DNA of 64,000 nucleotides from Candidatus Brocadiia bacterium (lineage in GTDB: Bacteria > Planctomycetota > Brocadiia > CAIUPP01), in contig JBEKCB010000006.1 of the NCBI GenBank assembly GCA_050015075.1, positions 15,811 to 79,810 on the forward strand. Direction: 5' to 3'. The notes under the pieces are model-generated. The model did not search any database and was not told the DNA's origin. It worked only from the letters and a program-made list of their open reading frames with translations. The translations under genes and the position numbers were made by a program. Shown piece after piece: positions 15,143-50,755 of the stretch (positions within the stretch are counted from its first letter, which is position 1; the number at the start of each line of letters is the position of its first letter).

Positions 15143-15232
15143 GTCATTCCCGCGAAGGCGGGAATCCAGGCGTTTCCGTGCGCGGCTTGCCGGCCGAAGG
15201 AGAGTTCCGGATTCCCGTTTCGGTGAAATGGC
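15143..15232. repeat. MITE/REP-like inverted-repeat element (GTCATTCCCGCGAAGGCGGGAATCCAG arm family), second arm degenerate
   Basis: The left arm GTCATTCCCGCGAAGGCGGGAATCCAG (15143-15169) is itself a hairpin. The right arm CGGATTCCCGTTTCGGTGAAATG (about 15208-15231) is a decayed inverted copy. An intact copy lies at 45886..45962. Confidence 0.6.
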
Positions 15233-33014: not shown

Positions 33015-33207
33015 GTCGGCGAGTATTCCGGGTAAATAATACATCTCTTGTCAACCTTGCAAAGGTTTGTATGAACCTTCGCAAGTTTTTCCATTTTGTG
33101 CCATCCTGAAGGCTGCCGCCCGTCGAGAGTCTCTCTTCGAGCCTGAGCCTCGGAGCCGCAGCGCCGAAGTTGCGGGCGAAATCCCTTCTCAGTTACAATG
33201 ATGGGCG

Positions 33208-35168: not shown

Positions 35169-35191
35169 AAGCGGCGGCCGCAGATAGCACG

Positions 35192-36184: not shown

Positions 36185-37305
36185 GAGAGGTCCTTCTTCA
36201 AAGCGATATCGCGCACGAGGCCGACAATGCGGTTGGCCTCGGACGCGCGATCTCGGAACCATGCCTGCACGCCCCGCTCGTAGGATCGCCAGGCGTCCTC
36301 ATCCGTCAACAGCATGCGCGCCGCCTCCACGAGCCGCTCGAAGTCCCCGCCGCAGACGATGCCGGCGTTCCGCTCCGCCAGCGAGCCGCCTGAATCCACA
36401 GAGAGAGAGAGAATGGGCATCCCGGCCTGGGCGGATTGGACGAAAGTCTGAGGGAAGACGCCCTCCGAGGAACTCGTCGAGACAAAGATGCGATGTTGTG
36501 CGAAGAGCGCGTTGGCCTCGTCGAAGGGCAGGCCTTCGTAGAGCATAAGATTGTCCGGCGCGCGTCTTCGCAACCGCGCGATGTCCTGGCTCGGATCGGG
36601 CTGGCAGACGAGGGTGAAGGAGTGACCCGGCAGCCGCGCTGCCAGGTCAACGAAAATGTCCGCGTGCTTGCCCACCGCGTCGCGGCCCACCCACAGCGCG
36701 CCCGCGCGCGGTCCCTCTGCCGCCGGCGGCGGTGGCGGCAACGGCGCGGGAAAGATCACCGCCGCGCGGCCATACGTGCGCCGGAGAACCTCGGCCTGCT
36801 GCGCGGTATCGCAGGAGAGCGCGCGGGCGTGACGCATGGCGAACTCGTGAAAGCGTCGGGCGAGGGGCGACAACGAGCTGTCGGGCTGGCCCGAGCATTC
36901 CTTGTCGCTGGCGCTGCGGCACATGTGCAGATGAGTTCTCCCCGCCGCAAACGCCGCGAAACTCACCAGGCCGTTGACGCCGCTGGCGCTCTGCGTGATA
37001 TACAGGTCGTGCCGCCCCGCCAGCAGGCGCCAGACCAGCCGCGCCAGTTGCGCCGCCGTGAAGTGAGGACCCGGCGACATGCGAATCACGGGGCGTATCG
37101 TCATGCCCGGTTCGCGGCGCACCGGCTGGCCGATGTCCGCCACGTAGAGCGTCACCTCGAACCCGCCCGCCTGCGCCAGAAGCCGGGCGATCTGGAGCGA
37201 CTCCAATTCCGCGCCGCCGAACGGAAATCGGCATCCCGGCTCCGTGAGGGAGCACGCGGCCAGTGAGATAATCCCAACGGAGATCGGAGAATCAGGGCGC
37301 TTCAT
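36181..37305 (-). CDS. glycosyltransferase (GT-B fold, GT4-like)
   Basis: 374 aa. The C-terminal half (RIFVSTSSSEGVFPQTFVQSAQAGMPIL) shows an E-x7-E-like GT4 signature. Confidence 0.6.
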   Translation of the reverse strand: MKRPDSPISVGIISLAACSLTEPGCRFPFGGAELESLQIARLLAQAGGFEVTLYVADIGQPVRREPGMTIRPVIRMSPGPHFTAAQLARLVWRLLAGRHDLYITQSASGVNGLVSFAAFAAGRTHLHMCRSASDKECSGQPDSSLSPLARRFHEFAMRHARALSCDTAQQAEVLRRTYGRAAVIFPAPLPPPPPAAEGPRAGALWVGRDAVGKHADIFVDLAARLPGHSFTLVCQPDPSQDIARLRRRAPDNLMLYEGLPFDEANALFAQHRIFVSTSSSEGVFPQTFVQSAQAGMPILSLSVDSGGSLAERNAGIVCGGDFERLVEAARMLLTDEDAWRSYERGVQAWFRDRASEANRIVGLVRDIALKKDLS

Positions 37306-37433
37306 CTTTCGCAGGCGATCCTCTTCAGGGGCTGAAATTCATGCGTAGCGTAGGTTCCCTGGGAAAAAGAGTCAAGTGGGCGAGGTTCAGGGCCTCGCGC
37401 AAGCGGTTGCGCGCTCTCTTCTGCCGCCCGTTT

Positions 37434-37650
37434 GTCGGCTATATCCTGTCGCAGTATACTGCCGCAGGATATAGCCGCCCGCTTTAACGCGAACGGGCTT
37501 GGGGCCGCGAACGTCTTTGGCTTTCTTCGCGCTCACTGTCTCCGCTCGTCCCTCGGCTATGTTCTGTCACGGTATACCTCCGTGGAATATGGTCACCCGC
37601 TTCCGCGAAAAATGGACTTGGGGCCGCGTACCGCTCCGGCTTTCGCCGAT
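37434..37650. repeat. two tandem ~118-bp units, each starting with a long imperfect palindrome
   Basis: Unit A starts GTCGGCTATATCCTGTCGCAGTATACTGCCGCAGGATATAGCC (a 40-bp palindrome, 37437-37476), then ...CTTGGGGCCGCGAACG..GGCTTTC. Unit B starts CTCGGCTATGTTCTGTCACGGTATACCTCCGTGGAATATGG, then ...CTTGGGGCCGCGTACC..GGCTTTC. The array lies between divergent genes. Confidence 0.7.
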
Positions 37651-37853
37651 CGGCCACGCCGCATGCGTTTTCCTTATCATTTCTTCAACGCCTTTCCCCG
37701 CCGGCGATCGGGGAGCGGAAGAAATGTCACAGCGGAACCGACGCATTTTACGCCCGCGCCGTTATTGTTCTTGACAGTGGGATTCACGGCGGATAGATTC
37801 CGCTGGTGTGTGTCGCTGGATTCCGAGAATAACCCGCTGCCCACGGAGGTCCT

Positions 37854-40100
37854 ATGTCAAGGATAGCCGCCTTCACCGCTTTGTTGATCCTGCTTGCGCC
37901 CTCGGCGCTGTTCGCGCAGACGCCTGAAGGCCCGGGCACGTGGGCCTTTCAGCCGGCTCGGGACGAGTTCCGGCCCGATGCGTTGCTGGACCTGCGCTCG
38001 CTCAACGAGAAACAGGCCGGCGAATCGGGGTTCGTGAAGGTGGATGCCAACGGCGATTTCGTCCTCGGCAACGGCGACCCGGTGCGGTTCTGGGCGGTCA
38101 ATACGAACGTCGGGCGCGATAAGCCGTTCCACGCCCGGCCGCTCTGGTCGGAGGCCGAGCCGGACCTGGCGCATCACGCCCGGTTCCTGGCCAAGCGCGG
38201 CGTGAACATGGTCCGGTTGCACGCGCACCTCGACCCCGGGCCCAAGGGCAAGCTGACGGAGTTCGATCGGGCCGAGCGCGACTGGATCTGGCGGGCAGTC
38301 GCCGCGATGAAGAAAGAGGGCATCTACGCGACCATCTCGCCGTTCTGGGCTGAGGGCTCCAGCGTCGGCCCGAGCTGGGGCATTCCCGGCGTGACGAAGG
38401 AGCAGAGCGCCGCCAGCCTGCTCTTCTTCGACCCGACGATGCAGGAAGGTTACCGGGCCTGGCTGAAAGCCCTCTACGCCGAGACGAACCCTTACACCGG
38501 CATCCCGCTGGCGAAGGACCCGGCGGTCGCGATCATCCAGCTTCAGAATGAGGACAGCCTGCTGTTCTGGACGTTCAACAGCATCCAGGGCGAGCAGCGG
38601 CGACGGCTCTCCAGGCTGTTCGGCGATTTCCTCAAGAGCAAATACGGCTCGCTGGACAAGGCGAAGCCGGCGTGGGGCGGCGCCGACAACAAGGATGACG
38701 ACCTCGCCGACGGCGTCGTCGCGCTGGACAATATCTGGGAACTGACCCAGGAGCGCAGCGGCGCGCGGGCCCGGCGGCTGGCCGATATGACCGAGTTCCT
38801 CAGCCGGACGATGGACGACTTCAACCGGAAGATGGAGAAATTCCTCCGCGAGGAACTCGGCTGCAAACAGCTCATCAACGCGGGCAACTGGCAAACGGCC
38901 GACATGGTCAAGCTCAACGATGCGGAGCGGTGGAGCTATACGGCCAACCAGGTGCTGGCGGTCAACCGCTATTTCGACGGGATTCATATCGGCAAAAACA
39001 ACGGCTGGGCGATCGAAAACGGAGACCAGTTCACGTCGCCCTCGGTGCTCCTCGAGCCGAGGCAACTGCCGGTCAGCCTCAAGCTGGTCAAGGGATTCCC
39101 GATGATGGTCACCGAGTCCGCCTGGGTCATGCCGGACGCGCACGCGAGCGAGGGGCCGTTCCTGGTGGCGGCTTACCAGTCGCTGTCCGGCGTGGACGCC
39201 TACTTCTGGTTCGCCACCGACACCGACGAATGGACTCCGCCGCAGTCGGCCAACGGCTACATGCCGTCGCAGGGCAAATGGCTGTTCGCCAACCCGGACA
39301 TGCTGGGCGGTTTCCCGGCGGCCGCGTTGATGTATCGCATGGGCTACGTTCGCCGCGGAGAGCCGGTGGTGCACGAGGAGCGGTCGCTGGAGAACATTTT
39401 CCAGCGGCGCGACCCGATCATCGCGGAAGGCGCCGGGTTCGATCCCAACCGCAACTCCGGGAACATCGCCCCGGACTCGTCGGTCAAGGGAGGCGTCAAC
39501 CCGCTGGCATTCCTGGCCGGCCGGGTGGAAGTCGTCTATGGCGGGCAGCCGCAGGCCAGCAAGGTGGCCGATCTGAAGCCGTTCATTGACGAACCGAACA
39601 AGGAAGTGCGCAGCGTCACCGGCGAGCTGACGTTCAACTACGGCAAGGGCTTCTGCCTGCTGAACGCGCCGAAAGCCCAGGGCGTCGCGGCGTTCTTCAA
39701 GAACCGGAAGGACTTCAAGACTGACGACGTCGAGATCGCCTCCGACAACGATTACGGAACCGTGCTCGTCGTCTCGATGGACGACAAGCCGATCCGCGAA
39801 TCCGGCAAGCTGCTCGTGCAGACGACGACGCAGTGCCGGCCGACCGGCTGGCGGGAGAAACCGGTCACGATCAAAGTGAAAGAAGGCACTTTCCCCGGCT
39901 TCGAGGTCGTCAATTTCGGCAAGGCGCCCTGGCAGGTGACGCGAGCCCGAGTCACGCTGACCATCCACAACCCCAGCCTGGCCAAGGCGACGGTGCTTGA
40001 CGCCAACGGCAATGCCGCCGGGGAAGCCAAGTTGGAGAGACGAGGCGACGAGGTCGAGTTCAGGTTTCCGGAAAACGCCTTGTACGTCATCCTCCAATGA
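37854..40100 (+). CDS. secreted glycoside-hydrolase-like protein (clan GH-A TIM-barrel type)
   Basis: 748 aa. Signal peptide MSRIAAFTALLILLAPSALFAQ. GVNMVRLHAHL and AIIQLQNEDSL are candidate Asn-Glu acid/base motifs. Confidence 0.5.
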   Translation: MSRIAAFTALLILLAPSALFAQTPEGPGTWAFQPARDEFRPDALLDLRSLNEKQAGESGFVKVDANGDFVLGNGDPVRFWAVNTNVGRDKPFHARPLWSEAEPDLAHHARFLAKRGVNMVRLHAHLDPGPKGKLTEFDRAERDWIWRAVAAMKKEGIYATISPFWAEGSSVGPSWGIPGVTKEQSAASLLFFDPTMQEGYRAWLKALYAETNPYTGIPLAKDPAVAIIQLQNEDSLLFWTFNSIQGEQRRRLSRLFGDFLKSKYGSLDKAKPAWGGADNKDDDLADGVVALDNIWELTQERSGARARRLADMTEFLSRTMDDFNRKMEKFLREELGCKQLINAGNWQTADMVKLNDAERWSYTANQVLAVNRYFDGIHIGKNNGWAIENGDQFTSPSVLLEPRQLPVSLKLVKGFPMMVTESAWVMPDAHASEGPFLVAAYQSLSGVDAYFWFATDTDEWTPPQSANGYMPSQGKWLFANPDMLGGFPAAALMYRMGYVRRGEPVVHEERSLENIFQRRDPIIAEGAGFDPNRNSGNIAPDSSVKGGVNPLAFLAGRVEVVYGGQPQASKVADLKPFIDEPNKEVRSVTGELTFNYGKGFCLLNAPKAQGVAAFFKNRKDFKTDDVEIASDNDYGTVLVVSMDDKPIRESGKLLVQTTTQCRPTGWREKPVTIKVKEGTFPGFEVVNFGKAPWQVTRARVTLTIHNPSLAKATVLDANGNAAGEAKLERRGDEVEFRFPENALYVILQ

Positions 40101-40186
40101 CGGACCGTCTCGAAGATTCAGTTGGCATGTTCGGGAATGCCATGAAATGACTTGAAGTGGCTGTGCATCCGGATTATGCTGATGAG

Positions 40187-40396
40187 ATGCCTGCAATGAA
40201 GAAAGAATACGACTTCTCAAAGGGCCAACGCGGCAAGTTCTGCCGGCGTGACGCACGCTTCAATCTGCCAATCTATCTTGAAAAGGACGTGCGCAAATTC
40301 GTCGAGGGGATTGCAGGCAAGAAGAAGCGGGACGTATCCACGGTCGTAAACGACCTTCTCAAGTCGGACATGCGGCTTGCGAAAGCCATAAAGTGA
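40187..40396 (+). CDS. orphan RHH/CopG(BrnA)-like antitoxin-type protein
   Basis: MPAMKKEYDFSKGQRGKFCRRD...IYLEKDVRKFVEGIAGKKKRDVSTVVNDLLK is a pattern typical of small antitoxins. No cognate toxin ORF is adjacent. Confidence 0.45.
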   Translation: MPAMKKEYDFSKGQRGKFCRRDARFNLPIYLEKDVRKFVEGIAGKKKRDVSTVVNDLLKSDMRLAKAIK

Positions 40397-40492
40397 GATG
40401 GTCGCGGGCACCCGCTCTTCGCAGCTCCGCTGCTTCGGCGGGCGGAGAAGAGTCGGGCTGGGTATGATGTTCATGCAGAGGAAGGCTGAGAC

Positions 40493-40759
40493 ATGGGCAA
40501 GCAGTATCAGGAATTTGCGATCAACTACTATCAGGACGCAGACGGCATTTTCACCGCCCAGGTTCCCGCCATTCGCGGCTGCGTAGCTTCAGGGAGGACG
40601 CTTGAGGAAGCCTACCGGAATGCGGCGGATGCCATCGAGAGTTGCCTGGAGGCGCGCGCCAAAGTGGCGGCAACGGCCCCGCTGTCCATGCTAGTCCCGA
40701 GCGCCCTCCTCGTTGGCCCGCAACCTTTCAAGAATCATCGCAGCAACTTCAGGCGCTGA
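40493..40759 (+). CDS. HicB-family antitoxin-like protein, C-terminus apparently replaced or truncated
   Basis: The N-terminal 60 aa YQEFAINYYQDADGIFTAQVPAIRGCVASGRTLEEAYRNAADAIESCLE form the HicB N-domain pattern. The last roughly 23 codons overlap the convergent TIR gene 3' end and look non-native. There is no hicA upstream. Confidence 0.5.
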   Translation: MGKQYQEFAINYYQDADGIFTAQVPAIRGCVASGRTLEEAYRNAADAIESCLEARAKVAATAPLSMLVPSALLVGPQPFKNHRSNFRR

Positions 40760-41683
40760 AAATTGTTGGATGTCAATATAACCGTCAATTCCGTATAGGC
40801 CATCTATTTGCGCTTCGTCAAAGCGGAAGAACATAATGGCAGAACTCTCACGTTTCTTCATCAGGTCTCGGATAGGCCGCCACTCAAGCCCACACCATTC
40901 TTTCTTTTGATAATCGGCACAAAGGAACACGGCTATCAACTCAGATTGCTCGTGGTATAGACGCTGTAAGTACGTGTCGAGATTAGGGCGCGCAAACTCC
41001 GGTTTGTGATATTTATCGTAAAGGATCCGTTTCCTTCCCAATACTCTACCAAGGTCTTCCGCGACCATCTGCACGAAAGCGCGCCGCTCGCCGGGAAAGG
41101 ATAGACCGACTGCAAATCTCTTTCTCTGCTTGGCATCCTCTTTGCACGACGCTGGCGCTACAGCGGCCGGCGGCGTTACGCATGGCGAAGGCGCGACGGC
41201 TTCGCGTTCACGAAGCGCCTTACTGAACTCCCGTAAATTTTCCAGAATCGGGCCGGCCTGGGCTGTAGGCTTTGGTAGTATGCCGAGTTCTCTCCGAATC
41301 CCTGGCTCCCAATCAGCCGCCCGCCGATAATCCGAAGCGAGAAGCGAAAGCCCGCAAAAAAAATCTTCAATGTCGGAAGTCCCAGATTCCCCCCTCACAC
41401 AAGCAAGAACCTTATCCAATTGGCGTTGCGCTCGCGTCCGCCGCACCTCGTCCATATCATCTTCACTGACAACGCTGTACTCAGCCGCCGGAAGGCAGCT
41501 ATGTCTAGGTTCTTCTTTGAAGTGTGTTGCCAAGCGGTCGGCGATGGCCTTGGAATCGGTAACATAGAAGACGTGGGGCATTCCAGGGATGTCGGGAACC
41601 TTATCCATGCCTCTTCCCTGCATCTGGGGAACCGGCGAACAGGCTATGAGGAGGTATCGCCCGGCGCTCCTTTCCTTGCTCAT
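40691..41683 (-). CDS. protein with an unknown N-terminal domain and a C-terminal TIR domain
   Basis: ATG 41683 overlaps the upstream TGA (ATGA at 41680-41683); the track's 76-codon extension is rejected. The C-terminal roughly 140 aa are FAVGLSFPGERRAFVQMVAEDL...ILYDKY...LIAVFLCADYQKKEWCGLEWRPI. This is the bacterial TIR pattern, including the WC..E glutamate. This part of the gene is visibly more A+T-rich than its surroundings. Confidence 0.7.
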   Translation of the reverse strand: MSKERSAGRYLLIACSPVPQMQGRGMDKVPDIPGMPHVFYVTDSKAIADRLATHFKEEPRHSCLPAAEYSVVSEDDMDEVRRTRAQRQLDKVLACVRGESGTSDIEDFFCGLSLLASDYRRAADWEPGIRRELGILPKPTAQAGPILENLREFSKALREREAVAPSPCVTPPAAVAPASCKEDAKQRKRFAVGLSFPGERRAFVQMVAEDLGRVLGRKRILYDKYHKPEFARPNLDTYLQRLYHEQSELIAVFLCADYQKKEWCGLEWRPIRDLMKKRESSAIMFFRFDEAQIDGLYGIDGYIDIQQFSAPEVAAMILERLRANEEGARD

Positions 41684-44600
41684 GCCTTCGCCCCCGCTTC
41701 GGCTACGCCCGGCCAAGCGTAAGCGTGGCTCTTGGCAATCGTGTAGTTGGCGTCCAGCGTCGGTTGCAGAAGGACGATCCGCGCCAGCCGGCGCGCCATC
41801 GCGGTCACTTCGCGGGCTTCTTCGGCCTTCAACGCGCGGCCGAGCAATTCCTGTTCGCGGTAGCTGAGCCACTTCTTGATAACCTGATACCCGCCGATGT
41901 AATACTCCCACACTTTCGCGGGGATGTTCTTCCAGTAGGCTACGTCATTCAGGTACACGTCTGTTGTGTCCGCGCCCAACAGCGCAATGGCCTTGCTCAG
42001 TGAAAGCCCGCGCGCTTCGGCGGCGTTGCGCAACGCTTCCAATTCGGCCTTGTCATACGGACGTTGCACAATCCGCCCCTTGGCCGGCATGGTGACACCT
42101 TCCTTGCCCGCGTGCCCCCAACCGGCGGTTACGGCGAGGTCCGCCGCGTCCGGGTCCAAATTGCCGCCGCCCACTTTCGTCAGTAAGCCTACGGTTCGGA
42201 AGATCGGCTCCAACTTGCCGGACGTGACGCCTGTTACTTCGGCTTCGGTATCGAGCAACGCCGCCAATTGCCGGCCCAAGGCGGCGGACGCTTCCAGCGT
42301 CTTGCGCGAATCGGGAAGCGGAATGCGCGGCCAGTCGCGCCGGATTCCGTCGGCGTTTTCGGCTAGGTACGCCGGGCTGTATCCCACGGCCAGGGCGTGA
42401 AGCCAGATTGTACCTGCCGCGTCCGCGCCGGCGTCAGGGTCATTGATTCCCAATCCGGCCAGGTACGCGCGCGCGGCGGAGGAAAGATTCGCCGTCGGCT
42501 CGGAAGGCCCACTTGCATCATGGAATAGTCCCTTTGCTCTCCCGGCCTCCTTCTGCAAGCGGATCGGCACGAAATAAGCGTCTGTGTGCAGAACGTGTTG
42601 GTCGGCGATATGGCCAACCAAGTGGAAAGTCGCGCCATCCGGCGCCTTCGCCGCGTGGCAGCGGATCAGAAGAAACCTGTTTCCATGCCACGCTTGAGCC
42701 AGAAGTTCCGGGCGCACGCGGTTCCACAAGTTAGCGATTCGCTCAATATACGCCCACCGCAGGTCAAATGGTTTGAAAAGAAAACGCGCGATGTTGCTGT
42801 CCCGGAATCCGCTCGCGGTCAACAATCGCTTGCGAACATCGGCCGCGCAGAATCCGGCCGCATCGGTTGTCAGCCCGGCGTGTAGGCGGGCAACATCTTC
42901 AAGTGCAACATTGGCGGCATAGTATGCCTTCATCCGGTCCGCAATGGTTTCTTTCTCAATTGCGTGAGTTCCTTGCTTCCTGTTATCATTCAATCCAAGC
43001 AAAGGTTCAGCTTCCGCCAACTCTACAACGGCGGGCCACGCCAAGTATCCTGTTGCGGTTTCGATTGGGCGGAATGAATAGGCATTCTCATTACGTGGCT
43101 CGGCTTGCGTGTAGGCTGCATCAAATCGCTTAGCGTCCAAGGTGGCAAGTAGCTGGTGACGACGTTCTTCGGCTTTTGCCGCTTCCACGTCGTTTCGGAA
43201 AAGGACTTGCGCCTGCCCGCCAGCCTTGCGCGGCTTGCCGGTCTTGACCCATAGCGACGTTGCTACCCCCTGTTGTATGCCAGAAGAAAAGCCTCGAATC
43301 GCAAAGACGGTTTCACTCGTGCGTCCGTCCGAAGCGTACTCGGAAATCCTGCGGTCGCCGTGAAGGTTCTCAATCCAGAAGCGGTCGAAGGAATCCAGCA
43401 GGTGCTTGCGAAGGACCACAAACGACGGCTCACCCGTCCAAGATTGATTAGAGATGAAGGACACAACGCCCTTGCCACTCATCTCAGCAATGCGCCTCTC
43501 GGCCAGGCGGAAGAAGCGAACGTACAAGTCGTCAAGGTAGTTCTTCGTTATCCCCCATTCCTTCAATCCCGCCTTGTACGGTTCAATCAGTCTTGCTTCT
43601 TCATCAAGTGCGACGCCTGCGAAACCGTTATATGGCGGGTTGCCCAGGACAACGAGTATCTTCCTGTCGCGCTTGACGTGTTCGGCGGCATCCTTTTCCT
43701 GTTGCAGTTCTTCCATGAACCCCAAGACAGTTTGCTTCGGCTCCTTGGGCGGTTCCCAGCCGGTCAGGGCATTGGTCAGGTACACACCGACGCGTTCATT
43801 GCTCTTGGCGGAGAGCGGAACGCCGAGTCTGTGAAGCAGCAATCCCAATTGCAAGTGCGATACGACGAAGGGTGCGGGGAGAATCTCAAAGCCGAATACC
43901 CGCGTCATGGCGGCCTTCTTCAAGTCCGAAGCAATCAGGGCGTCGCCGCCCTTGGCCTTCAGCGTTTCGGCAATCTTCTTCAGCACTTCCACCAGGTACG
44001 CCGCAGTGCCGCAACAGGGGTCTAGCACGACAACGTTGGGATCGGCCAAGCCGTCGGCCAGGCCCAATTCTTCGCGCAGGACGGTATCCACGCGAGCGAC
44101 CTGGTATTGCACGATTTCGGGCGGCGTAAACCATACGCCCAATTCCTTCCGCAACTCCGGGTCGAAAGCTTCAAGGAACGGCTCATAGAAATACTGGACG
44201 GCATGTTCGCCCTGAAACTTCTGGAAGAAGACGGCGCGGTCCACGCGGTTCAAGGCCCCGGTTGTCCAGTCCAGGACTTCCACAAGCTCCAGGTCGCCCA
44301 ACTTTCTGGGCGTGGCGATCTGTTCATACAGGGCGCGGATGAAGGGGACGCGCAAGGAAAAAGCGCTCTCATGCCAGTTGAAGGCGTCTTCGCGCTCCGG
44401 GCGCTCCCTATGCCAGAGCACCCAGGCCGAAAAGACGCCGTAGAAGATCGTCTGAACCAATGTTGAGCGGAAGAAATGCGCGCCCTTTTCCCCTGTGAAC
44501 TTCATTCCCAGGGCTTCTTCAAGCGCGCCGCGCACGGCGTCCAGGGCGGACAAGTCCTTGTGGTTTTCGACGCGGGCCCTGGCGTCGCGCGCGTAGGAAG

Positions 44601-45249
44601 CCAGAAACCAGGCCAGGTCTTGCGGGGCGGACAGGGGCGCGACGGACAGCATAACGCGCTTCAGGTATTCGCAGAAACGCGCGCCTTGCGCGGCTTCCTT
44701 TTGAGCGTCCTTTTCCTCCGCTGCTTTGCGCGGCTGTGCAGCCAATTTCCAAAAAGCCGACGCAGACTCGGCCAGCGTGAAGCGTTCCGCTGGAAGCGGA
44801 TTACTTTGAGCGTCTCGCCCAAGCAACAGGAAATCGCGGTAATTCGTCACGAGTACAACGCCGTACTTCGCGGAGTACCGCTTGACCTGTTCGCTTTCGG
44901 CAACCTTCGTCACGTCCTCGGCCGGGCCTTTGACTTCCACCACGCCACGGGCGGGAAGTTGGCCTTGCATCCCCGGCGCGGTACTCCGCGCCATTGGGTT
45001 TGGATCATTCTTGCGAATCTGGTCCGCCGTGAAAAGGCCGAAGTCCGGTAAGCCCGCGCCCGAATCAGCCGGCGTCTGGACGCAGCGGACCTTGGGCTTG
45101 AGGGTCTTGCCGATTTCGTCCAACAGATTCGACAAGGCAGGATAATATGACGTTTCGTCGGTAGCGGCCCCGGTATCGTGAATGTCGCGCATGTGCTTCA
45201 GGTAGGCTTCAAGCGGATTCGTCACGGCGTTGCACCCTCGCGTCTGCAA
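41680..45249 (-). CDS. large single-chain N6-adenine DNA methyltransferase of MmeI/Type IIL - Type ISP-like architecture (PD-(D/E)xK-like N-terminus, gamma-class MTase, Type-ISP-like C-terminal domain)
   Basis: 1189 aa. N-terminal GLPDFGLF...GVVEVKGP is a candidate D...ExK nuclease motif. SAM motif I is VVVLDPCCGTAAYLVEVL and motif IV is VVLGNPPYNGF. The C-terminal VWEYYIGGYQVIKKWLSYREQELLGRAL resembles the Type ISP C-terminal domain. I saw no Walker A or helicase motifs. Confidence 0.75.
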   Translation of the reverse strand: MQTRGCNAVTNPLEAYLKHMRDIHDTGAATDETSYYPALSNLLDEIGKTLKPKVRCVQTPADSGAGLPDFGLFTADQIRKNDPNPMARSTAPGMQGQLPARGVVEVKGPAEDVTKVAESEQVKRYSAKYGVVLVTNYRDFLLLGRDAQSNPLPAERFTLAESASAFWKLAAQPRKAAEEKDAQKEAAQGARFCEYLKRVMLSVAPLSAPQDLAWFLASYARDARARVENHKDLSALDAVRGALEEALGMKFTGEKGAHFFRSTLVQTIFYGVFSAWVLWHRERPEREDAFNWHESAFSLRVPFIRALYEQIATPRKLGDLELVEVLDWTTGALNRVDRAVFFQKFQGEHAVQYFYEPFLEAFDPELRKELGVWFTPPEIVQYQVARVDTVLREELGLADGLADPNVVVLDPCCGTAAYLVEVLKKIAETLKAKGGDALIASDLKKAAMTRVFGFEILPAPFVVSHLQLGLLLHRLGVPLSAKSNERVGVYLTNALTGWEPPKEPKQTVLGFMEELQQEKDAAEHVKRDRKILVVLGNPPYNGFAGVALDEEARLIEPYKAGLKEWGITKNYLDDLYVRFFRLAERRIAEMSGKGVVSFISNQSWTGEPSFVVLRKHLLDSFDRFWIENLHGDRRISEYASDGRTSETVFAIRGFSSGIQQGVATSLWVKTGKPRKAGGQAQVLFRNDVEAAKAEERRHQLLATLDAKRFDAAYTQAEPRNENAYSFRPIETATGYLAWPAVVELAEAEPLLGLNDNRKQGTHAIEKETIADRMKAYYAANVALEDVARLHAGLTTDAAGFCAADVRKRLLTASGFRDSNIARFLFKPFDLRWAYIERIANLWNRVRPELLAQAWHGNRFLLIRCHAAKAPDGATFHLVGHIADQHVLHTDAYFVPIRLQKEAGRAKGLFHDASGPSEPTANLSSAARAYLAGLGINDPDAGADAAGTIWLHALAVGYSPAYLAENADGIRRDWPRIPLPDSRKTLEASAALGRQLAALLDTEAEVTGVTSGKLEPIFRTVGLLTKVGGGNLDPDAADLAVTAGWGHAGKEGVTMPAKGRIVQRPYDKAELEALRNAAEARGLSLSKAIALLGADTTDVYLNDVAYWKNIPAKVWEYYIGGYQVIKKWLSYREQELLGRALKAEEAREVTAMARRLARIVLLQPTLDANYTIAKSHAYAWPGVAEAGAKA

Positions 45250-45385
45250 CCTCGCGTGAAAAGCAGGCGGGGCGGAAAGCCGTGCGAGTTCCGACGGATC
45301 GGGTCGCGTTCCCTATCCGCCCCGTGTGAGGATTCTACAATTCCCCGCCCGAAAATGCTACCCGGCGTCAAGAGACAGGGCATGT

Positions 45386-45767
45386 TCCGGGGAAACCCTA
45401 TTTCCTCCGCCTTCGCATGCCGCGAAAACGAGGCCTGGGCGATTGTCCCAGGCTGATACACGCGATTGGATTCGTTTTTTCAGATGGACTTGTCGCGCCA
45501 AGAGGTCGTTCGTCGGCCTTCGCGAAGCTGCGTCAATGGAGCGGGGATTTAGCGGCATGCGGGGGCCGATGCGGCATCATTCCGGCTCCTTACGGCGGCA
45601 TTACGACGGCATGAAAGCGGCATGGTTGTAGTCCGGGGAAATAAACCCTATTTGCTCCGCCTTCGCGTGATGGCGTCAATGAAGAGGGGATTTGGCGGCA
45701 TGCGGAGGCCGAGACGACATCATTCCGGCTCCTCACGGCGGCATGGCGACGGCATGAAAGCGGCATG
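45386..45767. repeat. tandem ~143-bp direct repeat (two tail copies, two head copies) rich in CGGCATG motifs
   Basis: Tails at 45516-45624 and 45659-45767: GCCTTCGCG..GCGTCAATG.AG.GGGATTT.GCGGCATGCGG.GGCCGA...CATCATTCCGGCTCCT.ACGGCGGCAT..CGACGGCATGAAAGCGGCATG. Heads TCCGGGGAAA..CCCTATTT.CTCCGCCTTCGC at 45386 and 45632. The array lies upstream of the methyltransferase start. Confidence 0.7.
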
Positions 45768-45885
45768 ACTATCAGAATGAGTCTGATTGTTCCACGTGAA
45801 ACAATTTATAACTTATCTTATGTTCCTGATCCTGCAATGGCGGACTGCGGGCTGTTGAAAAAGGCCATTGCCGCGTCTTCGCCGC

Positions 45886-45962
45886 GTCATTCCCGCGAAA
45901 GCGGGAATCCAGATCATTGCGCGGTGGGGCGAATTTTGGATTCCCGCTTTCGCGGGAATGAC
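45886..45962. repeat. MITE/REP-like inverted-repeat element (intact copy)
   Basis: GTCATTCCCGCGAAAGCGGGAATCCAG - 24 nt - TGGATTCCCGCTTTCGCGGGAATGAC. These are near-perfect terminal inverted repeats, and each arm is itself a hairpin. A second, degenerate copy lies at 15143..15232. Confidence 0.7.
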
Positions 45963-45998
45963 AAAGCGACTTTTATAGCGGCCCTACTGCCCGCCGCT

Positions 45999-47159
45999 TC
46001 AGCCGATGGCCTCGCGGATGCGGTGCAGGGCGTGGCGGATTTTGTCGAGCGACGTCGCGTACGAAAGGCGCAGGAACCCTTCGCCGTATTTCCCGAACGC
46101 CGTCCCGGCGAGCGTCGCCACGCTGCCCTGGTAGAGTAATTTGTCGGCCAGCTCGCGCGAGGTGACGCCCAGTTCGCTGATGTTCGGGAAGACGTAGAAC
46201 GCCCCGTGCGGCATGCAGCAATGGATGCCGGGGATGTCGTTCAGGCCCCGCACGATCGCGTCGCGCCGGCGACGGAATTCCTCCACCATCTTGCGAGCTT
46301 CGCCCTGGTCGCCCGTCAGCGCGGCGATGCCGGCCATCTGCGTGAAAGCCGCGGTGCACGAGTTGCTGTTGCTGATCAGGCGGCTGGTCCAGGCGGCCAG
46401 CTCGCGGCGCATCACGCCGTAGCCGAGGCGCCAGCCGGTCATGGCGTACGTCTTCGAGAACCCGTCGAGGATGACCGTGCGCTCCTGCATGCCGGGCAGC
46501 GAGGCGATGCTGACGCTCTCGCCCTCGTACAGAATCCGCGAGTAGATTTCGTCCGAGAGGACATAGCAGTCGTGTTCCTGCGCCTCGGCGGCCACGACCT
46601 CGAGGTCGGCCCGAGTCAAGACGCCGCCGCACGGATTCCCCGGCGAATTGAGGATGATCAGCTTGGTTCGCGGGGTCATGAGCGACCGGAATTCGTCCGG
46701 GTCAAAGCTGAACTGGCGCTCTTCGCGGAGCCGCATCGGCACGGGAACGCCGCCCACGAAGTTGATCATGCTTTCGTAGATCGGGAATCCCGGGTTCGGA
46801 TAGATCACTTCGTCTCCGGGATTGAGGAGCGCCATGATCGTGAAGAAAATGATCATTTTGCCGCCGGGGACGACGACGATGTTCTCCGCGGTCACCGGGA
46901 TCCCGCGCGTCCGGGCCACTTCTTCGGCGATGGCGCGCCGCAGCGCCGGGAGGCCGGCGGCGGGCGTGTAATGCGTGTAGCCTTCGTCGAGCGCGCGCTG
47001 GGCGGCATGCCGGATGTCGGAGGGCGTGTCGAAATCGGGTTCGCCGATTTCCATGTGGATGATTCTCGCGCCTTGGGACTCCAGCGCTCGCGCGCGCGCC
47101 AGGACGTCAAACGCCGTTTCCGTGCCCAGTTTTCGCAAACGGTCGGCAAATGGCTTCAT
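45999..47159 (-). CDS. class I/II PLP-dependent aminotransferase (aspartate/aromatic aminotransferase-like)
   Basis: ATG 47159 with a GGAGGG SD. MEIGEPDFDTP, YTPAAGLPALRRAIA, PNPGFPIY and SKTYAMTGWRLGY (PLP lysine motif) are all present. Confidence 0.85.
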   Translation of the reverse strand: MKPFADRLRKLGTETAFDVLARARALESQGARIIHMEIGEPDFDTPSDIRHAAQRALDEGYTHYTPAAGLPALRRAIAEEVARTRGIPVTAENIVVVPGGKMIIFFTIMALLNPGDEVIYPNPGFPIYESMINFVGGVPVPMRLREERQFSFDPDEFRSLMTPRTKLIILNSPGNPCGGVLTRADLEVVAAEAQEHDCYVLSDEIYSRILYEGESVSIASLPGMQERTVILDGFSKTYAMTGWRLGYGVMRRELAAWTSRLISNSNSCTAAFTQMAGIAALTGDQGEARKMVEEFRRRRDAIVRGLNDIPGIHCCMPHGAFYVFPNISELGVTSRELADKLLYQGSVATLAGTAFGKYGEGFLRLSYATSLDKIRHALHRIREAIG

Positions 47160-47299
47160 GGCCGCCCTCCAGTCCACCCGTTACCGACTTATGTATAACG
47201 AACTGGGCGGCGAGGAGTCAATGCCAATCTTCGGGCCAGAGAGAATGGATGAGAGCGGGCGGCTTGAGGAGGGTTCGAGCTTCGGTATTTTCCGTGCGG

Positions 47300-47668
47300 C
47301 TAATTCCGCATGACCTTGACGGTTTCATGCAGCACGGTCTCGGGATCGAGGTCGCTCAGAATGAATTTCGAGACGCCCGCGCGGCGCGCCTCTTTCGAGA
47401 GTCCCTTGACCTTGGGAGCGTTGAACATCACGACCGGAACGTGCGGATCGGATTTCTTCAGGCTTTTGACGAGTTCCCAATCTTCCCCGTGACCGACCTT
47501 CGCGCTGAGGATGACGACGCTCATGTACCGTTCCGCGATGATGGCAAGGCCGACGGTCCCGGAGAGGGCAATTTCCGCCTCGTAGCCGGATTGAACAAAT
47601 TGCTCTTGCAATCTGTCCACCGTACGCCGATCCTCGTCAATGATCAGAACTCTGCGCCGGGTGATCAA
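47300..47668 (-). CDS. atypical (pseudo-)receiver domain protein
   Basis: REC-like layout: RVLIIDEDRR...VVILSAKVG...VVMFNAP...SKFILSD. The expected phospho-acceptor Asp position reads Ser. The best start is TTG 47668 with a GGAGG SD 5 nt upstream; the track start 47773 and ATG 47746 lack an SD. Confidence 0.5.
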   Translation of the reverse strand: MITRRRVLIIDEDRRTVDRLQEQFVQSGYEAEIALSGTVGLAIIAERYMSVVILSAKVGHGEDWELVKSLKKSDPHVPVVMFNAPKVKGLSKEARRAGVSKFILSDLDPETVLHETVKVMRN

Positions 47669-47989
47669 ACGAACCTCCGGAAGAGAACATAACCTTCGAC
47701 GGACGCCCACAGAACCCCTATCTCTGTAGGAATTTACATGACGCATTGTATCAGGAAGAGGTTGCCCTGTCAATCATTTTTTTGTGGCTCGACTACAAAA
47801 ACGCTGGACTCAGTTGTAAGGCGCGTTGTACCGGCATGTTATGATACGGCGCTTTTCGAATCCAACGGCATGGATCTTGCTGGCGCGGCCAGTTATTTCG
47901 TCTCGAAAGATCCTTTTTCGTCGCCAGGAGATTTTCGGTTCGAAGGAACACAGGGAAGCTACCGAGTCATAAATGGAACAGGCTTCGCT

Positions 47990-49102
47990 TCAAAATGGAA
48001 CAACATTTTTCTCAGCACTTTTCTTTTCGTAAAGCAATTCATTTTTTTCGACCATCGTCTTGACCGAGAATTCGCGCTCAACGCGCTCACGCGCGGCCGC
48101 ACCGAGTCGCCGGCGCAGCGCCGCATCGCGCAGAAGCCGCAGGATGCGCTCCGCCAGCGCGGCTTCGTCGGCGGGCGGCACAAGGAATCCGGTTTCGCCT
48201 TCGACAATCAGTTCCGCGCAGCCGCCTACATTCGTGGCCACCGCGGGCTTCCCGCAGGCCATAGCCTCAAGGATCGCATTGGGCATTCCTTCCCAGGACG
48301 ATGGCAGCGCGATGAGGTCCATCCTCGCGAGGAGCGGCCGAGTGTCGGACAGCCATCCCAACCAGCGTACGCTGCTCGAGAGGCCCAGCCGGTCAGCTTC
48401 CGCCCTGCACTGCGTTTCCAGCCGCCCGGTTCCGGCGAAGGCGAATACCGTTTGCGGGGCCTCGCGCACCACTCGCGCCGCGGCCCGCAGAAGCAAGAGC
48501 GGGTTCTTCTGCCGGTCCAGCCGTCCGACAAAAGCCACCATCAGCACGCCTTCCGGCAGGCGCCACTCCGGCGGCGGCGCCAGCACCGGAGCATCGCAAT
48601 CGGATGGGTCCACGCCGTTCGGCACCACCACCAGCTTGTGCATCGGCACATGCGCGCGCCGATGGGTGTATTGCCGCGCCGATTCCGAAACACACGTGAA
48701 GACGTCCGTCAGCCGCTGCGTCAGGAATTCGACCCAAACGTGCCGGAGCCGTGGCTCCTCGACCCGGATGGACGCTATTTTTGTGCCGATTCCCGACCGG
48801 ATTGCGACCAGACTGCCGACAAAGTTGGCATGGAACAGGAATGTGTGCAGCACATGCGGCCGGTTCGCGCGCAGCGCCCGGCGCAGCCGCAGCCACGCGC
48901 CGAGATCCCACCAGCCGCGCATGTCAATCGGGATGACTTCGATCCCTTTTTCCTTGAGCCGACCGAAGATCGGGCCGCGGCCGGAGAGGCATGCGACGAT
49001 CGGCTCGAACCTCCGCCGGTCCAGGCGCGTGGCCAGCTCGTACAGCGCCTTCTCCGCGCCGCCGATTTCCAGTTCCGTAATGAGATAGAAAATCCTTCGC
49101 AT
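47990..49102 (-). CDS. GT4-family glycosyltransferase
   Basis: The start MRRIFYLITELEIGGAEK (ATG 49102, GAAAGGG SD) is followed by ...ALPSSWEGMPNAILEAMACGKPAVATNVGG (E-x7-E). The track's N-terminal extension is rejected. Confidence 0.8.
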   Translation of the reverse strand: MRRIFYLITELEIGGAEKALYELATRLDRRRFEPIVACLSGRGPIFGRLKEKGIEVIPIDMRGWWDLGAWLRLRRALRANRPHVLHTFLFHANFVGSLVAIRSGIGTKIASIRVEEPRLRHVWVEFLTQRLTDVFTCVSESARQYTHRRAHVPMHKLVVVPNGVDPSDCDAPVLAPPPEWRLPEGVLMVAFVGRLDRQKNPLLLLRAAARVVREAPQTVFAFAGTGRLETQCRAEADRLGLSSSVRWLGWLSDTRPLLARMDLIALPSSWEGMPNAILEAMACGKPAVATNVGGCAELIVEGETGFLVPPADEAALAERILRLLRDAALRRRLGAAARERVEREFSVKTMVEKNELLYEKKSAEKNVVPF

Positions 49103-49193
49103 GGCTGTACCCTTTCCGCGCCGCCGGAGATTGTAGCAGCCCGCGCCGAGCCGGACAATTGCCAGCGCGCGTCCAGCGGCTATAATAGAGCGC

Positions 49194-50669: not shown

Positions 50670-50755
50670 ATTTGTTTCTCACCACCACCGGCGCTGCAAG
50701 AGCAAGCAGCACCTTGATATCCGTCAGAGAATGCATATCATGACGCCATAAGGGT

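What the first reader, a model, noticed from the sequence alone, without database searches (positions are those of the whole stretch)
40691..45249. MmeI/Type-ISP-like methyltransferase translationally coupled to a TIR-domain gene: candidate undescribed two-gene defence module
**Seen in the sequence**
- A 1189-aa gene carries a PD..(33 aa)..EVK nuclease-like N-terminus, SAM motif I (VLDPCCGTAAY), NPPY motif IV and a C-terminal WEYYIGGYQVIKKWLSYRE segment of the Type-ISP C-terminal type. I saw no helicase or ATPase motifs.
- Its TGA overlaps the ATG of a 330-aa gene (ATGA at 41680-41683).
- The C-terminal roughly 140 aa of that second gene read as a bacterial TIR domain (SFPGERR...ILYDKY...VFLCADYQKKEWCGLEW, with the conserved Glu). 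Its N-terminal roughly 185 aa are unrecognisable.
- The pair, especially the TIR part, is visibly more A+T-rich than the flanks. I did not compute this.
- On one side the pair is flanked by two orphan antitoxin-like genes, one apparently truncated by the cassette. On the other side lie a tandem repeat array and a MITE.

**Established knowledge**
- TIR domains in bacteria act as NAD+-cleaving or signal-producing effectors in Thoeris, some CBASS and prokaryotic Argonaute systems.
- MmeI-like and Type ISP enzymes are self-contained restriction-modification proteins.

**Inference**
- A tight MTase/REase-TIR operon would couple a DNA-modification or recognition module to an NAD-depleting effector.
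- I do not recognise this gene pairing as any named system.
Basis: partly seen in the sequence, partly recalled or inferred. Interest (0 to 1): 0.8.

Follow-up and report, generated by a model that had tools for sequence, protein, structure and literature searches.

The report
Restriction enzyme beside unrelated TIR gene
A stand-alone restriction-modification enzyme gene and a small TIR-domain gene lie end to end in a strain-specific islet of a Brocadiia-class planctomycete genome, but the pairing occurs nowhere else, so it looks like two defence-type genes parked together, not a new two-gene system.

Summary
A 1189-aa single-chain restriction-modification (RM) gene (41680-45249, minus) has PD...EVK nuclease, DPCCGT and NPPY methylase motifs and a Type_ISP_C target-recognition domain, with no helicase. 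Its TGA overlaps the ATG of a 330-aa gene (40691-41683, minus) that ends in a genuine TIR domain.

- Of 155 usable loci encoding relatives of this RM enzyme, none has a relative of this TIR gene nearby.
- The RM family has no conserved neighbour at all. Its downstream genes are a defence-island mix, including a SPARTA TIR-APAZ gene that also overlaps the RM stop by 4 nt.
- None of eight distinct contexts of TIR relatives has this RM family next door.
- The closest full-length TIR relative (630 aa) shares a contig with an orthologue of this RM gene, but about 31 kb away on the other strand.
- A sister genome about 89-90% identical in the flanks carries different cargo at the same site.

Best reading: a 5.3-kb accessory islet at a hotspot holds a solitary Type IIG/IIL-like enzyme and an independent TIR effector that lacks the long N-terminal regions of its two relatives. 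They are probably co-transcribed here by recent juxtaposition. Interest is low to moderate.

The parts
41680..45249 (-). Single-chain RM enzyme, Type IIG/IIL-like architecture: N-terminal PD-(D/E)xK nuclease, gamma-class N6-adenine methyltransferase, C-terminal Type_ISP_C target-recognition domain, no helicase. The start is ambiguous: TTG 45249, GTG 45225 (JGI, 1181 aa) or a later ATG (NCBI, 1170 aa).
40691..41683 (-). 330-aa 'X-TIR' protein: short leader, rare domain X, Pro/Ala-rich linker, C-terminal TIR domain.
41246..41578 (-). Domain X (residues ~36-146; possibly from residue 9). It is shared only with P0242 (X+TIR) and P0241 (X plus sigma54/RtcR-type AAA+). Fold unknown.
40700..41128 (-). 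TIR domain (residues 186-328) with SFPGERR and WCGLEW motifs. E267 is the putative catalytic Glu.
   Evidence: dN/dS 0.22 against P0242.
41680..41683 (-). ATGA stop/start overlap between the RM gene and the longest credible TIR reading frame.
   Evidence: Alternative starts are M21, M26 and M35; JGI uses M21.
40121..45458 (.). Strain-specific accessory segment (5,338 bp, lower G+C) between conserved core genes. A sister genome (L174) has a different 3.0-kb cargo at the same site.
40493..40759 (+). 88-aa HicB-like ORF, convergent with the TIR gene and overlapping its 3' end by 69 nt. Possibly truncated.
40157..40396 (+). 79-aa ORF of unknown family inside the accessory segment.
45459..45969 (.). 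Non-coding repeats upstream of the RM gene: a duplicated ~112-190-nt segment (45459-45624 and 45656-45847, also present once in L174) and a palindromic REP-like element (45879-45969).

Best explanation
A 5.3-kb strain-specific islet (40121-45458) sits in a variable hotspot between a conserved 748-aa gene and an aminotransferase gene of a Candidatus Brocadiia MAG. It carries two separate defence-type genes in tandem.

**(1) RM enzyme.** This is a solitary single-polypeptide enzyme of Type IIG/IIL architecture.
- Inferred from the MmeI/DrdV and Type ISP literature: it recognises an asymmetric site through its C-terminal target-recognition domain, methylates adenine with its NPPY methylase, and cuts unmodified DNA with its PD...EVK nuclease.
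- It has no partner protein and no ATP motor.

**(2) X-TIR protein.** This is a small member of a very rare mobile-element family, [variable N-terminus]-[domain X]-[effector]. Here it has been reduced to domain X plus a conserved TIR domain that looks catalytically competent.
- Inferred: it acts as an NAD+-consuming abortive-infection or growth-arrest effector with an unknown trigger.

**Relationship between the two.** In this strain they are probably co-transcribed and possibly translationally coupled. That arrangement is a recent local juxtaposition inside a hotspot, not a conserved functional unit.

**Shown:** domain content, the junction, absence of co-conservation, and the hotspot. **Inferred:** enzymatic activities, co-transcription and independence of function.
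For: **Domain assignments:**

**The RM family is large and solitary**
- At least 8000 relatives at E<=1e-50.
- No neighbour cluster is shared by more than 3 of 80 loci.
- The 87 same-strand downstream ORFs hit 75 different Pfam families, none in more than 2 loci.
- The closest RM relatives (65-75% identity: L029, L087, L089, L144, L170, L173) share nothing with the window outside the RM gene.

**No relative of this TIR near the RM family**
- tblastn of the TIR protein against 160 fetched RM loci (155 usable, 120 with >=1 kb downstream) found nothing.
- The one exception is a weak hit to a convergent 885-aa WD40-NTPase-TIR gene in L141.
- The two downstream TIR genes found by Pfam are a SPARTA TIR-APAZ (L050, PADLOC 4.8e-124) and a ThsB-like TIR (L133). 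Both are unrelated to this TIR.

**TIR relatives have unrelated contexts and non-homologous N-termini:**

**Domain X**
- It occurs in only 3 clusters of 1.84 billion representatives.
- P0242 (57% identical over X+TIR) is 630 aa and lies in an integrase/PrimPol island.
- The orthologue of this RM gene (P0196, 66%) is on the same 67-kb contig, ~31 kb away on the other strand.

**Hotspot:** sister locus L174 is ~89-90% identical on both flanks but has a different 3.0-kb cargo.

**Different composition:** GC3 is 0.70 for RM, 0.56 for TIR and 0.75-0.88 for core genes, which hints at separate origins.
Against: - The genes are on the same strand with an ATGA overlap, or at most a ~100-nt gap if a later start is used. 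No terminator-like site lies at the junction. They are therefore very likely expressed together, which is what a functional pair would also look like.
- Both relatives of the X-TIR protein carry long N-terminal regions (314 and 451 aa) that this copy lacks. It may therefore need another protein for sensing or regulation.
- P0242 also lies downstream of a Type IIG-like gene, from a different family, about 5 kb away with five genes between.
- Only eight distinct TIR-family contexts could be inspected, so a weak association with RM genes in general cannot be excluded.
- No experiment or expression data were available.
Confidence: 0.65

Rival explanations
1. Functional coupling of the guard or back-up type, working like EcoprrI-PrrC. 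The sensor-less X-TIR protein is held inactive by, or takes its cue from, the RM enzyme encoded just upstream. It fires NAD+ depletion when the RM enzyme is inhibited by a phage anti-restriction protein, or when restriction fails.
For: - Same strand with an ATGA overlap.
- This X-TIR copy lacks the N-terminal regions present in both relatives.
- In L171 the X-TIR relative also lies in a gene array headed by a Type IIG-like gene.
- TIR genes of other kinds lie directly downstream of two RM-family members and convergent to a third.
Against: - The pairing is not conserved in any of 155 usable RM loci or eight distinct TIR contexts.
- On the contig with orthologues of both genes they are ~31 kb apart.
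- The other RM-adjacent TIRs belong to known self-sufficient systems (SPARTA, Thoeris-like).
- Overlapping junctions with this RM family also occur with housekeeping genes.
- The Type IIG-like gene in L171 belongs to a different family.
Confidence: 0.12
2. The TIR gene is a 5'-truncated, functionally decaying remnant of a longer P0242-like gene. It was cut off by the rearrangement that placed the RM gene next to it. The ATGA 'coupling' is then a by-product of the junction.
For: - Firm homology to the longer relatives starts only at residue 36 by BLAST, or residues 21-30 by phmmer. They carry 314-451 more N-terminal residues.
- The first ~35 residues are divergent and ~11 aa shorter than in the relatives.
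- Domain X shows dN/dS of ~0.95 against P0242, compared with 0.48 between the two relatives.
Against: - The 330-codon frame is open and the TIR domain is under purifying selection (dN/dS 0.22). All family-invariant residues, including E267, are intact.
- P0241 and P0242 share no homology N-terminal of domain X. The N-terminal regions are therefore swappable modules, and an X-TIR-only form could be a legitimate architecture.
- The dN/dS estimate for X rests on 111 codons and is noisy.
Confidence: 0.18
3. The TIR protein is a signal-producing Thoeris-like sensor, or a toxin of a toxin-antitoxin pair with the adjacent HicB-like gene.
For: - A HicB-like ORF abuts the TIR gene here. Another lies downstream of the relative P0005 in L001.
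- Toxin-antitoxin genes lie near other relatives.
Against: - No ThsB model hits the TIR protein, and no ThsA-type gene lies within +/-10 kb.
- The two HicB-like proteins are only 35% identical over 54 aa, and their orientations differ.
- HicB normally partners with HicA, not with TIR proteins (background knowledge).
- Most inspected relatives have no HicB nearby.
Confidence: 0.05

Closest known systems
Type IIL/IIG single-chain RM enzymes (MmeI, DrdV; PDB 7lo5)
   Same: One polypeptide with an N-terminal PD-(D/E)xK nuclease, a gamma-class NPPY adenine methylase and a C-terminal target-recognition domain, and no ATPase. PADLOC Type IIG models score up to 5.7e-92. DrdV is hit at 4.9e-17.
   Different: About 1170-1190 aa, longer than MmeI (919 aa, from memory) and DrdV (1029 aa in the PDB chain). 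Pfam MmeI_Mtase scores below its cut-off (15.3 against 27 bits). The recognition domain is of the Type_ISP_C kind. Specificity and cleavage geometry are unknown.
Type ISP enzymes LlaGI and LlaBIII (PDB 5ffj, 4xqk)
   Same: Methylase plus Type_ISP_C target-recognition domain (1e-17 and 3.9e-15; Pfam 2.3e-30). NCBI names the protein 'type ISP restriction/modification enzyme'.
   Different: It lacks the helicase-like ATP motor that defines Type ISP. The alignment to LlaGI covers only the methylase region (chain residues 680-985).
EcoprrI-PrrC (an RM-linked abortive-infection effector)
   Same: A suicide-type effector gene sits immediately beside an RM gene in one transcription direction. This would be the working analogy if the pair were coupled.
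   Different: In the described cases PrrC is embedded in the Type Ic hsd locus (background knowledge). Here the association occurs in one genome only. The effector is a TIR protein, not an anticodon nuclease.
Bacterial TIR effectors (AbTir, ThsB, SPARTA TIR-APAZ, TIR-STING)
   Same: TIR fold with the conserved catalytic-type Glu. Best structural matches are the MyD88 TIR (lowest E-value, 2.4e-5), AbTir (highest TM-score, 0.74) and the SPARTA TIR.
   Different: No hit to any PADLOC TIR-containing system model. The N-terminal partner domain X is unknown elsewhere. No ThsA, pAgo, STING, SAVED or cyclase partner is nearby.
P0242 (630 aa) and P0241 (1004 aa), metagenomic proteins on mobile elements
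   Same: They are the only other holders of domain X. P0242 also has the same TIR domain (57% identity over X+TIR).
   Different: Both carry long, mutually unrelated N-terminal regions. P0241 has a sigma54/RtcR-type AAA+ module instead of TIR.

Membership tests
Type IIG/IIL single-chain RM enzyme | N-terminal PD-(D/E)xK endonuclease motif in the same polypeptide | tested here: met
   P68-D69...E105-V-K107 are present. D69, E105 and K107 are invariant in 24 homologues.
Type IIG/IIL single-chain RM enzyme | Gamma-class N6-adenine methyltransferase motifs I and IV | tested here: met
   DPCCGT (410-415) and NPPY (537-540) are invariant. Pfam N6_Mtase 3.2e-9.
Type IIG/IIL single-chain RM enzyme | C-terminal target-recognition domain and significant match to curated Type IIG models | tested here: met
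   Type_ISP_C 2.3e-30. PADLOC REase_MTase_IIG 5.7e-92 and 3.5e-65.
MmeI family in the strict sense | Match to the MmeI methylase model above its curated threshold | tested here: not met
   PF20473 MmeI_Mtase scores 15.3 bits against a cut-off of 27.
Type IIG/IIL single-chain RM enzyme | Site-specific methylation and cleavage at a fixed distance | not testable with these tools
   Needs enzyme assays or methylome data.
Type ISP RM enzyme | Helicase-like ATPase motor between the nuclease and the methylase | tested here: not met
   No helicase or ATPase Pfam hit. The LlaGI and LlaBIII alignments cover the methylase region only.
   No relative of this TIR lies near 155 usable RM loci. None of eight distinct TIR contexts has this RM family adjacent. 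Orthologues of both lie ~31 kb apart on one contig.
Thoeris | ThsB-type TIR protein plus an adjacent ThsA (SIR2/Macro-SLOG) effector | tested here: not met
   No PADLOC ThsB hit at E<=0.1. No SIR2 or SLOG gene among the called genes within +/-10 kb.
SPARTA (short pAgo with TIR-APAZ) | TIR-APAZ protein plus a short Argonaute | tested here: not met
   No hit for the window's TIR protein. The positive control in L050 scores 4.8e-124.
BREX / DISARM | PglX- or DrmMI-type methylase together with PglZ/BrxC/BrxL or DrmA/B/C genes | tested here: not met
   NCBIfam BREX PglX scores 10.6 bits against a cut-off of 500. The neighbours are housekeeping genes or small ORFs.
Bacterial TIR NADase effectors | TIR fold with the conserved catalytic Glu | tested here: met
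   TIR_2 scores 32.1 bits against a cut-off of 28. pLDDT is above 90 over most of the domain, and AbTir matches at TM 0.74. E267 is invariant in 61 sequences and sits in the segment (EWCGLEW) that aligns with RPS4's WCVRELE motif.
Bacterial TIR NADase effectors | NAD+ cleavage or signal production | not testable with these tools
   Needs a biochemical assay.
RM-guard abortive-infection pairs (EcoprrI-PrrC type) | Physical or functional dependence of the effector on the RM enzyme | not testable with these tools
   No complex prediction or experiment was available. The conserved linkage that such dependence would predict was not found.

The most novel reading that the evidence does not exclude
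A newly assembled RM-guard. An X-TIR effector that has lost its own N-terminal sensor region has been captured directly behind a Type IIG/IIL enzyme. It now uses that enzyme's state (inhibition by anti-restriction proteins, or stalled cleavage complexes) as its trigger. This would be a TIR/NAD+-depletion analogue of EcoprrI-PrrC caught at birth.
Probability: 0.08. Interest if true: 0.75.

Novelty: new member of a known kind. Interest (0 to 1): 0.25.

Why it matters
**If the pair were a true system,** it would link DNA-level restriction to NAD+-depletion suicide, a coupling not described so far. The evidence here says the adjacency is a one-off in a strain-variable hotspot, so that significance does not apply.

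**What remains useful**
- The case is a worked example that tight stop/start overlap next to an RM gene is a poor predictor of functional linkage. The same RM family overlaps a SPARTA gene and housekeeping genes in the same way.
- It identifies a large, widespread helicase-less "Type ISP-like" RM family that NCBI currently names "type ISP".
- It identifies a very rare domain X that joins either a TIR or a sigma54/RtcR-type AAA+ module on mobile elements.
- It identifies a TIR_2 subfamily about 60% identical across phyla, with non-homologous N-termini and no model in PADLOC. That subfamily may deserve testing as a single-gene defence effector.

Tried and rejected
**Synteny and shared neighbours**
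- Synteny between the window and L167, where a TIR relative lies near a 750-aa GHL6 gene. Only the TIR domain matches.
- Homology among the small ORFs upstream of TIR relatives (145-163 aa in L001, L167, L168) and with our N-terminus. None was found.
- HicB as a travelling partner of the TIR gene. Identity is only 35% over 54 aa and the orientations differ.

**Structure of domain X**
- In the full-length model the N-terminal half has pLDDT 36-76, and Foldseek matched only the TIR part.
- A second model of X alone, with a 3-sequence alignment, gave pLDDT 39, so no fold search was attempted.
- Solved-structure sequence search for the TIR protein gave only marginal hits to the RPS4 TIR (E 0.4).

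**Other checks**
- TRF found no real tandem array near the RM gene.
- The promoter/terminator scan was no better than shuffled sequence.
- An apparent 1893-aa RM 'fusion' in L008 was an artefact of my ORF routine. The downstream piece is a fragment of a second RM copy.
- Literature searches for a TIR plus Type IIG/RM system found no described pairing.
- The first gene of L171 (a Type IIG-like methylase) was suspected to be the orthologue of this RM gene. It is a different family. The true orthologue, P0196, lies elsewhere on the contig.
Full report
**1. Observation**

The region holds two minus-strand ORFs exactly as described: 41680-45249 (1189 aa from TTG) and 40691-41683 (330 aa from the ATG inside ATGA).

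The large protein:
- It hits Pfam Type_ISP_C (2.3e-30), N6_Mtase (3.2e-9) and, below threshold, Eco57I and MmeI_Mtase. It hits no helicase family.
- PADLOC Type IIG RM models score 5.7e-92 and 3.5e-65.
- Among solved structures it matches the methylase regions of LlaGI and LlaBIII and the Type IIL enzyme DrdV.
- In an alignment of 24 homologues, D69, E105, K107, DPCCGT and NPPY are invariant.

The small protein:
- It passes the Pfam TIR_2 threshold (32.1 bits against 28).
- Its C-terminal ~140 residues are modelled with pLDDT above 90 over most of the span. They superpose on AbTir (TM 0.74), MyD88, BtpA, plant TIRs and the SPARTA TIR.
- E267 in WCGLEW is invariant across 61 relatives. It sits in the segment that aligns with the WCxxE motif of RPS4.

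Composition:
- G+C and GC3 are lower than in the flanks. GC3 is 0.70 for the RM gene, 0.56 for the TIR gene and 0.75-0.88 for core genes.
- The organism is a Candidatus Brocadiia MAG, according to the name NCBI gives the identical RM protein.
- A JGI contig is 100% identical over 20,138 bases including the junction.

Minor corrections:
- The PD-to-EVK spacing is 35 aa.
- The start of the TIR gene is ambiguous. JGI calls M21, which leaves a 56-nt gap.
- The "tandem array" is two ~112-nt copies, and the "MITE" is a REP-like palindrome with one more arm copy at 15144.
- Only one of the two "antitoxin-like" ORFs is recognisable, as HicB-like.

**2. Is the pair conserved? The RM side**

The RM protein belongs to a very large family:
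- At least 8000 relatives score E<=1e-50.
- Members are typically 1150-1200 aa and 50-75% identical across Planctomycetota, Acidobacteriota, Verrucomicrobiota, Cyanobacteria and other phyla.

I fetched 80 genome loci and 80 metagenome loci with 6-7 kb flanks.
- 155 were usable, 132 had at least 500 nt downstream and 120 had at least 1 kb.
- tblastn with the TIR protein at E<=1 found no relative. The one exception was a weak hit (22% identity) in L141. That gene is convergent and encodes an 885-aa WD40-NTPase-TIR protein.
- Clustering all ORFs within 2.5 kb of the RM gene in the 80 genome loci gave no cluster present in more than three loci.
- Pfam scanning of the 87 same-strand ORFs that start within 300 nt of the RM stop gave 75 families, none in more than two loci. 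They include Mrr, DUF559, DUF4143, protein kinases, DUF3800, RAMA, Schlafen/AlbA, AbiEii-type AAA_21, UvrD, RhuM, HipA and Bro-N. Plainly housekeeping genes also appear.

Two of the 87 downstream ORFs carry TIR domains of other kinds.
- L050 is a SPARTA TIR-APAZ protein (PADLOC 4.8e-124). Its longest ORF overlaps the RM stop by 4 nt.
- L133 is a ThsB-like TIR protein after a 266-nt gap.

In my longest-ORF calls, 4-nt overlaps also occur with a LysR regulator, a DapD-like acyltransferase and a HipA-like kinase. This RM gene is therefore a solitary, mobile unit that lands next to many things. The closest relatives (65-75% identity) share nothing with the window beyond the RM gene itself.

**3. 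Is the pair conserved? The TIR side**

- The TIR domain belongs to a subfamily that is ~55-70% identical across many metagenomic proteins of 180-570 aa.
- Their N-terminal regions are not homologous to each other.
- The subfamily has no PADLOC or NCBIfam model.
- The contexts of six relatives (L001, L002, L003-L005 as one locus, L167, L168, L169) show no RM gene of this family. They show transposases, toxin-antitoxin genes, STAND-type AAA_16 genes or ordinary metabolism.
- The small upstream ORFs in three of these contexts are unrelated to each other.

**4. The N-terminal half**

An exhaustive phmmer search of residues 1-188 against 1.84 billion cluster representatives found only three clusters.
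- The protein itself.
- P0242 (630 aa): a 314-aa N-terminus, then a ~150-aa "domain X", then the same TIR domain. It is 57% identical to ours over X+TIR.
- P0241 (1004 aa): a 451-aa N-terminus, then domain X, then a sigma54/RtcR-type AAA+ module.

P0241 and P0242 share only domain X, at 66% identity. The architecture is therefore modular: variable N-terminus, X, effector. The window's protein has X and TIR but no N-terminal region.

- Firm homology starts at residue 36 by BLAST, or at residues 21-30 by phmmer.
- By eye, RYLLIACS (residues 9-16) may correspond to the RYFLM(I/V)HC that opens X in the relatives.
- X gave no confident model (pLDDT 36-76 in the full-length model, 39 alone), so its fold is unknown.
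- Against P0242, dN/dS is 0.22 for the TIR domain but ~0.95 for X. It is 0.48 for X between the two relatives. These are noisy estimates on 111-143 codons.

**5. The decisive context**

- P0242 lies on a 67,326-bp contig inside an integrase/PrimPol mobile island.
- That island also holds a different Type IIG-like gene, a GHKL ATPase and a PD-T4-6-like Ser/Thr kinase with an FHA domain.
- The orthologue of this window's RM gene (P0196, 66% identity) is on the same contig, ~31 kb away on the opposite strand.
- P0196 sits next to a phosphomutase gene, ~4.6 kb from dnaA, and is followed by an unrelated 200-aa gene.
- So the one genome fragment known to carry close relatives of both genes does not have them together.

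**6. The site**

- A sister contig (L174) encodes a 92%-identical copy of the 748-aa flanking protein.
- It aligns to window 33102-40120 and 45459-50731 at ~88-92% nucleotide identity.
- Between these blocks it has a different 3.0-kb low-G+C cargo of four hypothetical genes.
- The window's 40121-45458 segment (orf79, HicB-like ORF, X-TIR, RM) is therefore strain-specific cargo in a hotspot.
- The difference in GC3 between the RM and TIR genes hints that they did not share a long common history.

**7. Interpretation**

*Best supported (about 0.65).* Two independent defence-type genes lie juxtaposed in an accessory islet.
- The RM enzyme should work alone, as the architecturally similar single-chain enzymes do, although it misses the strict MmeI model threshold. 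This is inferred from the MmeI and DrdV literature (titles and abstracts listed).
- The X-TIR protein is inferred to be an NAD+-consuming effector with an unknown trigger.
- Co-transcription is likely, because no terminator-like site lies at the junction. It reflects local history, not a conserved design.

*Rivals.*
- A guard-type coupling working like EcoprrI-PrrC (about 0.12). It is attractive because this X-TIR copy lacks any N-terminal sensor region, but no conservation supports it.
- A truncated, decaying remnant of a P0242-like gene (about 0.18). The missing N-terminus and the relaxed-looking X domain support it. The intact frame and the constrained TIR domain oppose it.
- A Thoeris-like or HicB-paired role (about 0.05).

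**8. Comparison with known systems**

- The RM enzyme meets the sequence-level criteria of Type IIG/IIL single-chain enzymes.
- It fails the defining helicase criterion of Type ISP, so the NCBI name is only half right. It also misses the strict MmeI model threshold.
- The TIR protein meets the fold and catalytic-residue criteria of bacterial TIR effectors.
- The TIR protein matches no Thoeris or SPARTA model, the methylase falls far below the BREX PglX threshold, and no partner genes of any of these systems lie nearby.
- The hypothesised RM-TIR module fails its co-conservation criterion.

**9. Verdict**

The proposed new two-gene system is not supported. Novelty is limited to new members of known kinds, plus a rare unexplained domain X. 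Interest is 0.25. The most novel reading not excluded is a newly formed RM-guard with a TIR effector, with probability about 0.08.

Noticed in passing
window 40121-45458; L174:12259-15289: The interval between the conserved 748-aa gene and the aminotransferase gene is a strain-variable hotspot. A sister contig ~89-90% identical in both flanks carries a different 3.0-kb low-G+C cargo of four hypothetical genes.
   Followed up: yes
window 41246-41578 (-); L171:8001-9893; L172:102-3116: A very rare ~110-150-aa 'domain X' occurs in only 3 clusters among 1.84 billion representatives. It joins either a TIR domain or a sigma54/RtcR-type AAA+ module, behind unrelated long N-termini. Both relatives have mobile-element-type neighbours: integrases and PrimPol in L171, a MuF_C gene in L172. 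Its fold could not be predicted.
   Followed up: partly
L171:1-11811: A same-strand gene array sits just upstream of PrimPol and integrase genes. It comprises a Type IIG-like gene of a different family, a GHKL (HATPase_c_3) ATPase, three small ORFs, a PD-T4-6/mad6-like Ser/Thr kinase with FHA and TPR, X-TIR (P0242) and a 601-aa unknown. It could be a multi-gene defence island worth its own analysis.
   Followed up: partly
L050:10471-11898: In an Acidiferrales MAG, a member of the same RM family is followed by a SPARTA TIR-APAZ gene (PADLOC 4.8e-124) whose longest ORF overlaps the RM stop by 4 nt. The contig ends before any Argonaute gene.
   Followed up: partly
proteins P0002-P0120 (TIR_2 subfamily); window 40700-41128: A TIR subfamily with SFPGERR and WCGLEW motifs is ~55-70% identical across many metagenomic and MAG proteins. 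Their N-terminal regions are non-homologous and 50-400 aa long, and some relatives sit beside STAND AAA_16 genes. PADLOC and NCBIfam have no model for it.
   Followed up: partly
window 45879-45969 and 15144-15168: The REP-like palindrome TCATTCCCGCGAAAGCGGGAATCCA forms a hairpin pair upstream of the RM gene, and one more arm copy lies at 15144. It explains the spurious 124-aa ORF at 45765-46139.
   Followed up: partly
window 45459-45624 and 45656-45847: Both segments match a single overlapping stretch of L174 (15290-15535), so this non-coding segment looks duplicated in the window beside the hotspot boundary.
   Followed up: no
L001 and L068 (MAG GCA_964438165.1, contigs CAYTJV010000233 and CAYTJV010000283): One Planctomycetaceae MAG carries both a TIR-subfamily relative (P0005) and an RM-family relative (58% identity), on different contigs.
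   Followed up: no
window 41680-45249 (-): NCBI names this family 'type ISP restriction/modification enzyme', although it has no helicase-like motor. The start codon also differs between callers (1189, 1181 or 1170 aa). The conserved NPLExYL at residues 11-17 favours one of the two upstream starts.
   Followed up: partly
L170 and L173: Two of the closest RM orthologues (75% and 66% identity) both lie next to a metalloenzyme/phosphomutase gene (PF01676/PF10143) on the RM gene's 5' side, in the same orientation in L170 and the opposite orientation in L173. This suggests a different, semi-conserved chromosomal position in related genomes.
   Followed up: no
L008:5467-7680: A fragment of a second RM-family copy (C-terminal region) lies downstream of the complete gene.
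   Followed up: no
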